Positions 25,262 through 31,406 of a stretch of 31,406 nucleotides of DNA are shown here, piece by piece; the first letter of the stretch is position 1; every line of letters starts with the position of its first letter. Where the stretch lies: contig JAXHVD010000031.1 in assembly GCA_034189385.1 (NCBI GenBank), positions 1 through 31,406 on the forward strand. The letters are read 5' to 3'. Source of the DNA: Thermodesulfobacteriota bacterium (lineage in GTDB: Bacteria > Desulfobacterota > Desulfobacteria > Desulfobacterales > C00003060). A program made the translations under genes and the position numbers. The notes beneath the pieces were generated by a model. It was given only the letters and a program-made list of their open reading frames with translations. It was not told the origin of the DNA and did not search any database.

Positions 25262-25350
25262 GCCTGGGTGGCGGAATAGGTAGACGCAAGGGACTTAAAA
25301 TCCCTCGGAGCATAGTCTCTGTACGAGTTCGATCCTCGTCCCAGGCACCA
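25262..25350 (+). tRNA. tRNA-Leu (anticodon UAA)
   Basis: Acceptor GCCTGGG/CCCAGGC plus ACCA; anticodon arm AGGGA-CTTAAAA-TCCCT; long variable arm; T arm ACGAG-TTCGATC-CTCGT. Confidence 0.97.
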
Positions 25351-25358
25351 AGAAACAA

Positions 25359-26462
25359 CTACTTAGCCACTCCCTTGAGCCTACCATTTACGCCACCCTT
25401 ACAAATTGTGCCCGAAACTGTGCCCGTGCCCATTTGAGATTTCAGGTATTCCTCTTGCTTACGTGCTGCCAGTTTCAGGTCTGTGTCATTCACGATGTTG
25501 TAACGGTCAAAGACCGATCTTGTCTTGTGGCCTGAGATCATCATGGCCACCCTTTCAGGCACCCCTGAACGGACCATATTTCTGACAGCCGTTCTCCTGA
25601 AGTCGTGAAAAAGGCGCTTGCCAATGCCGGCATCATCACAAGCCTTTGTCCAGGCCCCCCGAAAGTCCTTGACCGTGCCATGGCCGTCTTTGCCCGGGAA
25701 AACGTGAGGGGTCAGCTTCTTTCGTCGCTTCCGGGCCTTCCATTGGCCCTTGAAAACGTCCCTCAGTTCATCGTCAAGATAGACGGTCCGGGCTTCATCG
25801 TTCTTGGTTTCTCCTGTCTCAAGTCTCACAATGCCTTGCTTTAGATCCACTTGGCCCCAGGTGAGGTTCCTGATTTCGGACACTCTCCATCCGGTCTTGT
25901 ATGCGAAAGTGACAAACCCCCTTAAATAAGAGGGAAGGGCCTTTCTCAAGGCCACAAAGTCCCCATGTTCAAAAAATCCCTTGCGGACATTGTTTTCCTT
26001 GAGCATGGGAATATAGGGGACCCTGTCCACTTTTGGAGGGGTTTGACGCGCCCCCAGGTTCAACAGACGCTTCAGGGCCGACAGTTCTCGGTTGACTGTA
26101 GCATTGGCCGCACCTTCCTTGAGTCTCTTTTCAATAAAGTCACCTATCCGAGGGGACGTTATATCCCTCACCTTGTCCCCCTTGAAAGTGGCCTTCAAGC
26201 GCTTGACGCTTCGCTCGGCCCTGTCCAGAGACTTCTTTTGATTGATCCTGTAGTCTCTAAGGAAGTCCTCTGCCAGTTCATCAAACTTGACCCGGTCAAA
26301 GTATATCCCTGGCAGCTTACCGGCTGAAATTTCGCCTTCACGCTTCCTGAGAAGGCGCTTTGCATCGGCCTCTTTATGGCTCTTGGATGACTCCCTGTAG
26401 GGTTTGCCGTTCCGGTAATACTTGACCCAATAAACTTGGCCCCGTTTGTAGATCATGCCCAT
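25359..26462 (-). CDS. Tyrosine recombinase / phage-type integrase
   Basis: N-terminal arm-binding-like domain; catalytic R (TGWRVSE), K (ETKN), HDFRR, SGH and Y (FDRYN). Confidence 0.95.
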   Translation of the reverse strand: MGMIYKRGQVYWVKYYRNGKPYRESSKSHKEADAKRLLRKREGEISAGKLPGIYFDRVKFDELAEDFLRDYRINQKKSLDRAERSVKRLKATFKGDKVRDITSPRIGDFIEKRLKEGAANATVNRELSALKRLLNLGARQTPPKVDRVPYIPMLKENNVRKGFFEHGDFVALRKALPSYLRGFVTFAYKTGWRVSEIRNLTWGQVDLKQGIVRLETGETKNDEARTVYLDDELRDVFKGQWKARKRRKKLTPHVFPGKDGHGTVKDFRGAWTKACDDAGIGKRLFHDFRRTAVRNMVRSGVPERVAMMISGHKTRSVFDRYNIVNDTDLKLAARKQEEYLKSQMGTGTVSGTICKGGVNGRLKGVAK

Positions 26463-26690
26463 CTAGTCTTCACCCCCTTTGGGTTCCTTGAACAAGTAGT
26501 TCAAAACGTCATTCTGCACGTCAATCACGTCTTGCAATATGTCCGCCACCCCCGCAAAGTAGATTTCACTTACTATGGGCCTATCCTTTGTGGCCTGGAC
26601 CCCGGCCTCATAGATAACCTGAGCAGAGCCCTGTAAGACGCTTACCTGATTCTGTGCTTTTGTGAGCCGATCATATAAGTTTTCACTCAT
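26463..26690 (-). CDS. Small hypothetical protein
   Basis: AAAGGAAGG RBS before MSENLYD; its stop codon directly abuts the integrase ATG. Confidence 0.65.
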   Translation of the reverse strand: MSENLYDRLTKAQNQVSVLQGSAQVIYEAGVQATKDRPIVSEIYFAGVADILQDVIDVQNDVLNYLFKEPKGGED

Positions 26691-26706: not shown

Positions 26707-26771
26707 TCATTCCCCTTAAGGCTCAATTCCACGAGCTTTGATCATTCCCCTTAAGGCTCAATTCCACGAGC
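26707..26771. repeat. 30-bp perfect direct repeat, 35-bp period
   Basis: TCATTCCCCTTAAGGCTCAATTCCACGAGC at 26707-26736 and 26742-26771. Confidence 0.95.
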
Positions 26772-26950
26772 CTCAGTTTGGCTTCAAAAAGCTCTAGAGC
26801 GTCCACGTTCTTTTCGTCGGCTTCCTCCACAAGGGCAAGCAATGTATCCTGTGCCTCTTCCCTTAGTGACTCCCAAAACCGCCTTAGCCTGTGCCTTTCT
26901 TCCATCTCTTCGTCTGTCATTGGAATGCCCGCAAGCTCACCTTTACCCAT
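26723..26950 (-). CDS. Small acidic helical hypothetical protein
   Basis: AAAGGGGGT RBS before MGKGELAG; lies in the same leftward operon as the integrase. Confidence 0.65.
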   Translation of the reverse strand: MGKGELAGIPMTDEEMEERHRLRRFWESLREEAQDTLLALVEEADEKNVDALELFEAKLRLVELSLKGNDQSSWN

Positions 26951-27052
26951 CAAATCACCCCCTTTCTCAATTTGCCCATACTCGGACATGCACCAAGCCG
27001 AGATCGTCCAAATTTCGCAGCCTGGTGAAGCCTGGTAGGGCTGTAGAAATAG

Positions 27053-27110
27053 AAAACCCCGGGAATCCAGGGTCCGCCAAGACCTTGCCCTTTCGGGCTC
27101 CCAGGGTTTC
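27053..27110 (-). ncRNA. c4-like antisense RNA (three-way junction)
   Basis: Minus strand: closing stem AAACCCTGGGA/TCCCGGGGTTT, hairpin GCCC-GAAA-GGGC, hairpin GGTC-TTGGCG-GACC, then TGGATT. TGGCGG and TGGATT are complementary to upstream CCGCCA and AATCCA (27136-27150). Confidence 0.7.
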
Positions 27111-27159
27111 AGTGTTATGGCAGCTTGTGTTTTCATGGCGGTTTTGGATTTGGGTTAAA

Positions 27160-27197
27160 GGTGATACAGTGATATCACCGCATAAAGTGTATGTCAA
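27160..27197 (-). promoter_or_regulatory. Leftward promoter with palindromic operator
   Basis: Minus-strand TTGACA (27197-27192), 17 nt, TATCAC. The palindrome GGTGATA-N6-TATCACC (27160-27179) overlaps the -10/+1 region. Confidence 0.6.
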
Positions 27198-27243
27198 GCG
27201 GTTTCTGTTGATAATCTGGCAGAAATGGAATATGTGTCTTTTT

Positions 27244-27408
27244 ATGGCCACCGAAAAGCCCAGGATTCTCATAACCGTTGATAAAGACTTCCTAAAACGG
27301 ATTGATGATTTCCGTTTTGATAACCGGATAAACACCCGGTCAGAGGCCGTTCGCCGCCTCATAGACGAAGCCCTCAAAAAGTACGAGAAGAAGGGCAAGG
27401 GGAAATAG
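27244..27408 (+). CDS. Ribbon-helix-helix (CopG-like) regulator
   Basis: MATEKPRILITVDKDFLKRIDDFRFDNRINTRSEAVRRLIDEAL; divergent from the integrase operon. Confidence 0.85.
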   Translation: MATEKPRILITVDKDFLKRIDDFRFDNRINTRSEAVRRLIDEALKKYEKKGKGK

Positions 27409-27702: not shown

Positions 27703-28092
27703 GGTCCTCAATCCTCATCCACAATCTTCTTAAGCCACTTATCAGCCACTTCCTCAATCCCCGGGCCAATCTCTTCCTCTGCTGGAAGCATCGCGGAGCA
27801 TGCCCATAAGCTTGTTGATCCACTCGACTACGTAGTTTCGCCTACGTAGTTTTCGCGTCAAAATATGGTTACTTTGTGCCATTGATTTCCTCTTTATGGT
27901 GTGGTACGCACCCTCATGTAGGACTTGGTCAGTCAATAGCTGGTTTTCTTTGACGTATTTTTGCATCATTCCAGAGTCACCCGCGTGAATACACACCTCA
28001 AATGCTGCTTACCTAGCTCCTGACAGGGCATCGTCTGTTCTGTTGGGAGATACAACAATCCACGAGAACAAAAACCGAGAGGGAGGAGAGAG

Positions 28093-28368
28093 ATGAAAAG
28101 AAAAGCAAATGTTTTGGCAGTGGGCTTAGCCTCAGCAGCGTTGCTCTTAGCCAGCATGATAGGGTCCGGTTGCTCCAGTTCCACAGAAAAGGTTCCGCCT
28201 CCCAGCGCTGAGGAGCGTGGCAAGGGTCTTTACCCCAGCGACACGCTTTATCCGAGCGAGACTCTGTATCCTAGTGATGAGACTCAACGTGGCAATGATC
28301 TTTGCCCAAGTGATGATCTTCATCCTAGCGAAGACCTTTATCCAGGCGGAGGGAAAAAGCCTAAATAG
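28093..28368 (+). CDS. Small lipoprotein with LYPS(D/E)x hexapeptide repeats
   Basis: GGAGG RBS; signal peptide with lipobox-like GSGC; six L(Y/C/H)P(S/G)xx units. Confidence 0.75.
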   Translation: MKRKANVLAVGLASAALLLASMIGSGCSSSTEKVPPPSAEERGKGLYPSDTLYPSETLYPSDETQRGNDLCPSDDLHPSEDLYPGGGKKPK

Positions 28369-30705: not shown

Positions 30706-31335
30706 ATGAACTTACTTGAATTTAAAAAGAGAATAAGTGCTAACAAAACAACGGCAAAAAACTGGCCGGAGATTATCAGGTTCAGAGAGAAACTTGAAGA
30801 CTCTAAAGAAAATATCATATGGATATATAGAGGGCAAAGTAGTAATAAAGGACTAAAGACGTCACTTGAACGAACAATCAAAGATTACAAATTAGGAAAA
30901 GAAGATCCATTCGATATTGAATTTGTCCTAACTGATCGATTCAGAAGAAATCTAACTACTGTTGATCCAACTGTATCCAAAGATTTAAGTCCGGTAGAGC
31001 TTTTTGCTCTCATGCAACATTATGGTGCGCCTACAAGACTTGTTGATTTTACTTATTCATTTTATATTGCACTTTTTTTTGCTCTTGAAAACTTCCAAGG
31101 TAATTCTCCAACAATCTGGTGTATAGATGGATTATGGTTTCAGGAGCAGACTATTAATCATCTTGGCATTACTGAAAAAGAGTTTATGCCTGGTAAATGT
31201 GGGAAAGACTTTAAAAAGTATTTCATGAAAGTTAATGGAAAGAGTGTTAAACGGGCAGTGTATCAATTGACTCCTTATCAACTCAGGCGATGGACCCAAT
31301 TAGTTGGACAGCCTGAGAGGCAGAATAAGCTCTGA
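30706..31335 (+). pseudogene. FRG-domain protein, C-terminally interrupted by an IS3-family element
   Basis: WIYRGQ, MQHYGAPTRLVDFT, ALFFA motifs. AT-rich coding sequence switches to IS sequence near 31286. Confidence 0.85.
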
Positions 31336-31406
31336 GCCGCCAGCGTTAGAGAACCAGGCCTCAGGCAGCCTCCTTGAACGGATGAGGAAGGGCGAAGTAG
31401 ACCTCA
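31286..31406 (-). mobile_element. IS3-family insertion sequence, right end (continues beyond window)
   Basis: The minus strand encodes ...EVYFALPHPFKEAA* (stop at 31361-31363), resembling IS3 OrfB C-termini, followed by an IR-like TGTCCAACTAATTGGGTCCATCGCC. Confidence 0.72.

What the first reader, a model, noticed from the sequence alone, without database searches (positions are those of the whole stretch)
27053..27197. Unannotated c4-like antisense RNA switch upstream of an integrase operon
Seen: downstream of a TTGACA promoter, the leftward transcript carries AATCCA-aaa-CCGCCA (27150-27136). About 25 nt later is a three-way junction with a GNRA hairpin and a second hairpin. It exposes TGGCGG and TGGATT, the exact complements of those two boxes. 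Established: bipartite a/b target plus a'/b' antisense geometry defines P1/P7 c4 RNA and P4 CI-type immunity. Inference: this element uses RNA-based control of two unknown small ORFs and the integrase. No ash/icd/ant-like gene is recognisable, so this may be a new variant.
Basis: partly seen in the sequence, partly recalled or inferred. Interest (0 to 1): 0.8.

Follow-up and report, generated by a model that had tools for sequence, protein, structure and literature searches.

The report
Antisense RNA switch before island integrases
A small folded RNA at the front of a mobile DNA island's integrase operon pairs with the start of its own message, and in dozens of related islands the two pairing partners have changed in step, which points to an RNA lock-and-key that shuts the operon off, related to but distinct from the known phage C4 RNAs.

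Summary
Real, and not a one-off. No Rfam model scores the RNA. The same leader lies beside the divergent ribbon-helix-helix gene of many Desulfobacterota islands: 88 distinct copies, window included. All 26 model pairs show compensatory change. Box and loop sequences differ between islands but stay complementary: cognate duplex -17.6 versus -10.3 kcal/mol, best of 10,000 permutations -11.7. Two features were missed. An AUG abuts the target box in 69 of 83 copies, and its frame stays open through the RNA in 63 of 69 (other frames 24 and 16). A U-tract follows the closing stem. Best model: the released RNA masks the leader start, ribosomes no longer melt the stem, and transcription stops before the integrase. 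The family is a sister of Rfam c4-2, whose hits my model scores at 30-40 bits; it lacks C4's downstream target and icd/ant genes. The window copy is a divergent short-hairpin form that my models score only 9-11 bits. No expression data were available.

The parts
27192..27197 (-). -35 hexamer of the leftward (integrase operon) promoter
   Evidence: a TTG[AC]N motif lies 37-55 nt before the first box in most family members
27169..27174 (-). probable extended -10 (TGn-TATCAC), non-canonical; start of transcription inferred near 27162
   Evidence: not called by the consensus scan; inference
27160..27179 (.). inverted repeat GGTGATA-N6-TATCACC over the -10, candidate operator of the RHH protein
   Evidence: read; similar palindromes in relatives; binding is inference
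27145..27150 (-). target box a (AATCCA), pairs with the junction
27136..27141 (-). target box b (CCGCCA), pairs with the P3 loop; its last A is the A of the leader AUG
26723..27136 (-). leader ORF running through the RNA; here 137 codons and in frame with orfA, because 27037-27035 reads TAC where relative L435 has a stop
   Evidence: no Pfam or PHROG match, one weak NCBIfam match far below cut-off
27111..27135 (-). A/C-rich unstructured linker (first codons of the leader); candidate processing site
   Evidence: processing is inference
27053..27110 (-). three-way-junction RNA: P1 27110-27099/27064-27053, P2 GAAA hairpin 27098-27087, P3 27084-27071
   Evidence: family covariation
27074..27079 (-). 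antisense b' (TGGCGG) in the P3 loop
27064..27069 (-). antisense a' (TGGATT) in the P3-P1 junction
27047..27056 (-). U-rich tract after the G+C-rich P1 stem, candidate intrinsic terminator
   Evidence: (82 of 88 members with at least 5 T in 8 nt)
26975..27045 (-). long imperfect hairpin between the RNA and orfA, shared with L435, role unknown
   Evidence: (z -0.36 for 26945-27060, not significant)
26723..26950 (-). orfA, 75 aa, unknown function
26463..26690 (-). orfB, 75 aa, unknown function; stop abuts the integrase start
25359..26462 (-). tyrosine integrase, 367 aa, intact
   Evidence: (PF00589 E 3e-26)
25262..25350 (+). tRNA-Leu(TAA), probable integration site; the other att copy is not in the assembly
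27244..27408 (+). divergent ribbon-helix-helix (CopG-like) repressor, 54 aa
   Evidence: PF01402; phrog_4738 E 1.2e-16
27208..27236 (+). probable RHH promoter ending 7 nt before its ATG, so a leaderless mRNA
   Evidence: TTG at -35 in 51 of 70 and TA at -12 in 43 of 70 RHH loci; inference

Best explanation
A C4-clan antisense attenuator that controls the integrase operon of a tRNA-targeting island. The leftward transcript starts about 12 nt before boxes a and b, which lie directly 5' of a leader AUG. When no regulator RNA is present (newly arrived element), a ribosome starts at this AUG and translates through the three-way junction and the U-tract, so P1 cannot act as a terminator and orfA, orfB and the integrase are transcribed. 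Transcripts that do terminate, probably trimmed in the A-rich linker, fold into the stable junction RNA. Its P3 loop and junction pair in trans with boxes b and a of new transcripts, mask the start region, and let P1 plus the U-tract terminate, which makes more regulator. The result is delayed self-shut-off and immunity against elements with the same boxes; box changes create new specificity types. The RHH protein adds transcriptional control at the overlapping promoters. Shown: fold, covariation, AUG position, open frame, U-tract, gene context. Inferred: transcription, processing, action in trans, translation of the leader, termination, sign of regulation.
For: Fold: 36 non-window copies aligned by MAFFT, 90.9% of cells paired, 24 of 26 pairs with two-sided change, covariation 0.572 against 0.247 shuffled and at most 0.182 slid; 93 model-aligned matches, 94.6%, 26 of 26 (fitted to the model). 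Box/loop covariation: 88 distinct leaders, cognate -17.6 vs non-cognate -10.3 kcal/mol; own leader ranked first for 24, top five for 60; window ranks first; after stricter de-duplication (40 left) -17.1 vs -10.3. Loop vs b 7.4 vs 4.4 paired nt, junction vs a 4.5 vs 3.8, both beyond 5000 permutations; 64 loop types in 83. Leader ORF: AUG at the box in 69 of 83, control windows 13 and 11; open through P1 in 63 of 69, expected 34.3 sd 3.8. The open frame follows the AUG, not the RNA: 41 of 45 for one phase, 19 of 20 for another, no preference in 14 copies without AUG; the peptide is not conserved. U-tract in 31 of 35 seeds chosen without regard to it. Same-strand recombinase downstream in 53 of 87 (34 of 48 with at least 1.5 kb), 33 within 330 nt. 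The genome's second copy (C34:131403-131479, before a serine recombinase) has other boxes and poor cross-pairing, -5.5 and -11.7 vs -16.9 and -17.8. Precedent: P1 b2 lies just before icd and is annotated as repressing icd-ant translation.
Against: No RNA data (one search listed no RNA holder). The leader AUG has no Shine-Dalgarno: median anti-SD energy -0.8, 1 of 69 below -4. 14 of 83 copies with a good duplex were scored as lacking the AUG (at least two of these look like mis-placed duplexes), and 6 of 69 leaders stop before the end of P1. Boxes can also pair in cis: 76 of 83 truncated transcripts fold that way, which supports a rival. The window copy scores only 9.3 bits (E 3.3) and 11.3 bits (E 2.2) with models built without it, has a weak -10 and lacks the leader stop. 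Some co-resident copies share boxes (L342 and L355). Members are related, so permutation values overstate independence.
Confidence: 0.55

Rival explanations
1. Same repression in trans, but without translation: in the nascent transcript boxes a/b pair in cis with a'/b' before the 3' strand of P1 appears and so block the terminator; mature RNA titrates the boxes, P1 forms and transcription stops (or Rho loads on the C-rich leader).
For: Cis duplex is the predicted fold in 76 of 83 transcripts cut before the 3' strand of P1, but in only 6 of 83 full ones; in the window the forced cis state costs only 1.7 kcal/mol. It explains copies without AUG and the missing SD. The leader is A/C-rich and G-poor. 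P4 CI causes premature termination by pairing with seqA and seqC (PMC4825925, passages).
Against: Does not explain why the AUG frame stays open (63 of 69) and tracks the AUG phase. Family median penalty of the cis state is 7.6 kcal/mol in 76 copies, so it would be a kinetic trap only. The two routes may act together.
Confidence: 0.22
2. The pairing activates rather than represses (IsrK-like), or works only in cis as a folding switch: the cis duplex hides the leader start and free RNA or another signal opens it.
For: The cis duplex covers the bases just before the AUG. Gifsy-1 IsrK activates orf45-anrP translation in trans, and orf45 keeps its nucleotide but not its amino-acid sequence (PMC4825925, passages).
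Against: In full-length folds the boxes are free in 77 of 83, so there is little to open; RNA bound in trans would itself cover the start region. Presentation of the antisense bases in a loop and junction matches the repressing P1 C4 geometry.
Confidence: 0.1
3. The family is functional but this window's copy is a decaying relic that now acts only as a fixed terminator or not at all.
For: Short P2, low model scores, non-canonical -10, lost leader stop, no second att site in the assembly. Decayed leaders occur in the family (L159, L274, L346, L347, L358).
Against: L435 from another metagenome contig has the same short-P2 form (51 of 65 core columns) with paired changes in P1 and P3; the window's RNA ranks its own leader first of 88; integrase, RHH and tRNA are intact.
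Confidence: 0.12
4. An ordinary branched terminator or promoter-proximal hairpin with chance complementarity to upstream sequence.
For: Nested complementary boxes are common by chance; the scan calls a terminator-like site here.
Against: Covariation of boxes with loops across 88 copies; no such signal for downstream sequence or the RHH-side strand (78 copies, permutation fractions 0.71 and 0.77).
Confidence: 0.01

Closest known systems
Rfam c4-2 (RF02944, clan CL00128; Weinberg et al. 2017, PMC5737381)
   Same: Three-way junction with a GNRA hairpin, variable P3 loop, short junction and terminal U-run (consensus). My model R3 scores the 6 over-cut-off c4-2 hits and the one in L426 at 30-40 bits, E 1e-5 to 2e-8. 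By eye these also have upstream boxes complementary to loop and junction.
   Different: The c4-2 model does not score the window or the leader RNA of 16 member loci; its hits lie at other places than the R2 hits in the same 151 genomes. c4-2 has a bulged P2 and an internal loop in P1; most of the c4-2 copies I saw have a small hairpin after the boxes and a longer leader rather than box-AUG-A-rich linker. The paper's main text only calls c4-2 a likely distant homolog of a known RNA; its supplement was unreadable and may describe targets or a leader ORF.
P1/P7 C4 antisense RNA (Rfam C4 RF01695; targets c4-a1b1 RF03163)
   Same: Same topology and target order: box a pairs with the junction, box b with the loop; targets upstream in the same transcript; a target next to a start codon. 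Few-base changes set P1/P7 specificity (PMC5320573, passages).
   Different: C4 has a 17-pair P1 with AUGG...CCACC ends and no U-tract, hairpin-presented a1/b1, a second target a2/b2 downstream, and icd-ant genes. Here P1 is about 12 pairs, the boxes are unstructured, there is one upstream target only, and the targeted ORF overlaps the RNA. R3 gives no match at P1 C4 or at five C4 copies from the same order.
Satellite phage P4 CI RNA with seqA/seqC, and Gifsy-1 IsrK/orf45
   Same: Leader-encoded RNA causing premature termination (PMC4825925, PMC3632133, passages). An annotated ORF crosses the P4 RNA: cI ORF 569-985 of L443 over the C4 hit 821-908. Recalled, not from a call: translation of P4 kil/eta governs termination.
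   Different: No seqC-like downstream target, no IsrK-like 5' hairpin, no Icd/Kil-like domain; the controlled gene is usually an integrase and the partner repressor is RHH.

Membership tests
Rfam C4 (RF01695) | Score above the family's gathering threshold | tested here: not met
   No hit in the window at gathering or E<=10; positive controls P1 68.8 and P4 74.9 bits; 7 of 151 genomes of the order carry true C4, not G000
Rfam C4 (RF01695) | Three stems with a' and b' single-stranded in junction and P3 loop, complementary to bipartite targets | tested here: met
   P1 geometry
Rfam C4 (RF01695) | Long (about 17 pairs) tRNA-like closing stem with AUGG...CCACC ends, no U-tract | tested here: not met
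   C4 consensus, rows; here 12 pairs plus U-tract
P1 C4 / P4 CI immunity systems | Second target downstream of the RNA (a2/b2, seqC) | tested here: not met
   78 members, downstream 150 nt: cognate -13.7 vs non-cognate -13.9, permutation fraction 0.71
P1 C4 / P4 CI immunity systems | Hairpin-presented upstream target (c4-a1b1 / IsrK / seqA) | tested here: not met
   No Rfam hit; boxes unpaired in full-length folds; controls hit
P1 C4 / P4 CI immunity systems | icd/kil/ash or antirepressor gene under control | tested here: not met
   NF033153 hits both controls and 0 of 7 window proteins; no Ash or Icd family among 74 first downstream ORFs, one short Rha match in an atypical member
P1 C4 / P4 CI immunity systems | Mature 75-80 nt RNA released by RNase P; repression in trans | not testable with these tools
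   No RNA run listed
Rfam c4-2 (RF02944) | Score above gathering threshold for the window or family members | tested here: not met
Rfam c4-2 (RF02944) | Homology seen in the reverse direction (family model scores c4-2 copies) | tested here: met
   7 of 7 c4-2 hits at or above cut-off score 30-40 bits with R3; the 4 sub-threshold c4-2 hits score at most 10.9
Rfam c4-2 (RF02944) | GNRA-capped P2 and 3' U-run | tested here: met
   consensus; GTGA, GCGA, GCAA or GAAA loop in 71 of 88 by automatic fold; U-tract
RHH/integrase-leader family defined here (models R2, R3) | Window copy scores significantly with a model built without it | tested here: not met
   9.3 bits and 11.3 bits
RHH/integrase-leader family defined here (models R2, R3) | Same position, topology, box-AUG layout and a sequence bridge to scoring members | tested here: met
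   L435 (196 of 262 columns with the window leader) scores 23.0 bits, E 0.0014; L426 scores 33-41 bits and shares 40 of 66 core columns

The most novel reading that the evidence does not exclude
A self-overlapping antisense attenuator: one short leader is at once target, translated ORF, terminator and source of its own repressor RNA. It controls the integrase directly and has diversified into dozens of non-cross-reacting box/loop types that act as immunity groups among the genomic islands of sulfate-reducing and syntrophic bacteria.
Probability: 0.45. Interest if true: 0.76.

Novelty: new variant of a known kind. Interest (0 to 1): 0.62.

Why it matters
RNA-based immunity of the C4 type is known from a few enterobacterial phages, and c4-2 is a bioinformatic motif whose mechanism I found no account of in the text I could read. 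This family gives a large natural set of target/antisense pairs with clear covariation, a testable mechanism (translation of a leader across the RNA against a terminator), and a direct link to integrase control in Desulfobacterota islands that Rfam misses. It also offers a model for c4-2. A 115-nt self-contained switch with many natural specificity types could serve as a set of orthogonal RNA regulators.

Tried and rejected
Rfam scans of the window: only the tRNA. Integrase relatives as anchor: 2 of 33 other loci carried the leader, because these integrases sit behind several leader types; the RHH anchor worked. Pattern scans of viral contigs (120 and 86 stretches): those printed after energy or complement filters looked like chance (output was cut). 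RHH search of viral contigs: 2 distant loci without the RNA. Phage records by blastn: 1 weak match of 50,697 records, not followed. Model R1 lacked P3 and was not used. Four weak R2 matches (three 35-nt hits in G005, one in G011) are not counted as members. No RNA holder listed; contigs of three DNA runs gave no excision joint; neither says anything about expression or activity. Targets downstream or on the RHH strand: none. orfA and orfB: no family in Pfam, PHROGs or NCBIfam above cut-off, Atlas scores under 0.9. My first frame control (19 of 138) was biased by the TGA inside ATGA and was replaced. Tight translational coupling to the next gene was rejected: stop positions vary widely. Paper searches listed nothing on this family; the library lacks most subscription papers, and the supplement of PMC5737381 could not be read.

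Full report
1. Observation. The sequence is as described: TTGACA at 27197-27192, box a AATCCA 27150-27145, box b CCGCCA 27141-27136, then after 25 nt a three-way junction 27110-27053 with a GAAA hairpin, a second hairpin carrying TGGCGG and a junction carrying TGGATT. The core folds at -32 kcal/mol, z -3.23. One base of each antisense box is stem-paired, and the -10 is non-canonical. The geometry alone proves little, since a generic scan finds many such nested boxes by chance. Rfam gives nothing here even at E<=10.

2. Setting. The leader heads a leftward operon: orfA (26950-26723), orfB (26690-26463) and an intact tyrosine integrase (26462-25359) ending 8 nt from a tRNA-Leu. A 54-aa ribbon-helix-helix gene (27244-27408) is divergent. 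The contig ends at 31406 and no second att copy is in the assembly. The named relatives carrying the RNA are mostly Desulfobacterales and Syntrophales/Smithella.

3. Homologues. Two of 33 integrase loci had the same plan with different boxes. Anchoring on the RHH protein, which does not select for the RNA, gave many more: 32 of 80 genome loci by constrained folding and inspection (three repeat earlier loci) and 44 of 80 metagenome loci by model. The Firmicutes RHH hits lacked it by eye. A model of 36 non-window copies (R2) matched 16 of 151 genomes of the order, 14 after dropping four weak hits; R3 matched 8 of 151 in the phylum. For copies found by the RNA model (plus L026), 10 of the 12 divergent ORFs I submitted (of 14 extracted) hit an RHH-type family. 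A recombinase lies downstream on the same strand in 53 of 87 members; 23 of the 74 first ORFs I submitted (of 78) hit an integrase or recombinase family. The window's genome has a second copy at C34:131403-131479 with other boxes, before a serine recombinase.

4. Structure and target covariation. In the MAFFT alignment 24 of 26 pairs change on both sides and 90.9% of cells pair; shuffled and slid controls are far lower. The model-fitted alignment of 93 matches gives 26 of 26. For 88 distinct leaders (95 before de-duplication at 90%), the loop-plus-junction segment pairs with its own leader at -17.6 kcal/mol and with others at -10.3; no permutation of 10,000 went below -11.7; the window ranks its own leader first. 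Five copies with a duplex weaker than -12 were set aside for later counts. Loop/box b and junction/box a each covary on their own, with 64 loop types among 83. The signal holds for 40 more distant copies. No target exists downstream or on the RHH strand. Members are related, so these tests are not strict probabilities, but the effect is large.

5. An AUG abuts box b in 69 of 83 copies, against 13 and 11 in neighbouring windows; its frame is open to the end of P1 in 63 of 69, the other frames in 24 and 16. The open frame follows the AUG when the spacing shifts (41 of 45 and 19 of 20), and copies without AUG show no preferred frame. The peptide is not conserved, so the act of translation seems to be what is kept. 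In the window the AUG is at 27136 and the ORF runs on into orfA because a stop present in L435 is absent. A U-tract follows P1 in 82 of 88, and in 31 of 35 seeds picked without regard to it. Against efficient translation: these AUGs have no SD. The RHH mRNA looks leaderless.

6. Is the window copy a member? Models built without it score it 9.3 and 11.3 bits, not significant: P2 has only four pairs and P1 differs. Membership rests on position, layout and a bridge: L435 matches 196 of 262 leader columns and scores 23.0 bits (E 0.0014), and L426 shares 40 of 66 core columns and scores 33-41 bits. I take it as a divergent short-P2 subtype.

7. Mechanism. Most likely (0.55): translation of the leader keeps P1 from terminating; released RNA pairs in trans with boxes a and b, blocks initiation, and P1 plus the U-tract stop transcription before orfA, orfB and the integrase. 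This gives a burst of integrase on arrival, then shut-off and exclusion of islands with the same boxes. Rival (0.22): cis pairing of boxes is the antiterminator and the RNA titrates it; 76 of 83 truncated transcripts fold that way but only 6 of 83 full ones, with a median penalty of 7.6 kcal/mol. Activation or cis-only action (0.10), a relic window copy (0.12) and chance (0.01) are less likely. That the family is a real antisense regulator of its own leader I put near 0.93.

8. Known systems. It works like P1 C4: same target order, and a box beside a start codon. It is not a C4 member: no score where controls score 69-75 bits, short P1, U-tract, no downstream target, no icd/ant, and true C4 occurs separately in 7 of 151 genomes of the order. 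The nearest family is c4-2: R3 scores all 7 c4-2 hits at or above cut-off at 30-40 bits, while the c4-2 model misses the window and the leader RNA in the 16 member loci scanned. An ORF across the RNA has precedent in the P4 cI annotation and Gifsy-1 orf45. Papers seen: PMC2864571 passages and parts of supplements 5 and 6; PMC5737381 passages only, supplement unreadable; PMC5320573, PMC4825925, PMC3632133, PMC10695390, PMC8546580 passages. P4 kil/eta translation control is recalled. Nine searches listed no description of this family; the unread c4-2 supplement may already cover part of it.

9. Verdict. Real; a new variant of the C4-clan antisense systems, sister to c4-2, missed by Rfam, with strong comparative support and a specific untested mechanism. 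Interest 0.62.

Noticed in passing
L003, L005-L007, L009-L016, L018, L019, L027: last 35 nt before the integrase start: Many relatives of the window's integrase have another conserved leader: a hairpin starting CCATCTTG that pairs with and hides the GATGGAGG ribosome-binding site. Not scanned against Rfam.
   Followed up: no
L022 (last 70 nt before the integrase), L298, L341, L393, L408: A further recurring motif with GGATAGGCAC / GCCGACAAG and a CAGGG..AAGTGAG end lies between leader and integrase.
   Followed up: no
G000:C34:131107-133325 (L351): Second island in the same genome: RHH gene, family RNA with boxes TTCCA and CAGTAC, then a 604-aa serine recombinase.
   Followed up: partly
window 27954-28049 and G000:C34:130918-130823: A 96-nt stretch 86% alike lies downstream of the RHH gene in both islands, with shorter copies on C22 and C12; in the window it precedes a small exported ORF and a PEP-CTERM fragment. 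Possibly a shared cargo promoter.
   Followed up: no
L426 2195-2264 and L276 2254-2330: Tandem switches: a c4-2 RNA with its own boxes and an open leader frame 600 nt behind the family RNA in L426, and a second family RNA without a cognate box in L276.
   Followed up: partly
L454, L455, L458, L461, L449, L451, L453: c4-2-type leaders have a small hairpin, often opening with GGAGG and followed by a U-run, between boxes and RNA; 5 of these 7 loci show an AUG in a frame open across the RNA or nearly so by eye.
   Followed up: partly
window 27160-27179 and RHH loci: Operator-like palindromes over the -10 differ between islands (GTGATATCAC, GGTTATATAACC, GGGTATAAACCC types) and may covary with the RHH recognition strand.
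   Followed up: no
L159/L271, L438, L439: The same deletion joins the boxes directly to the 3' end of an integrase gene, removing the RNA.
   Followed up: no
L264 865-933, L268 1761-1828, L158 2734-2801: int-alpA RNA matches inside member islands; L264 also has a tRNA-Sec nearby.
   Followed up: no
window 31286-31406: The contig ends in a repeat identical to the ends of contigs C7 and C21, at raised depth; probably a mobile repeat that broke the assembly, next to an FRG-domain gene (30706-31335).
   Followed up: no
window 28216-28345: The 91-aa ORF at 28093 has a six-residue repeat (LYPS-type) near its C-terminus.
   Followed up: no
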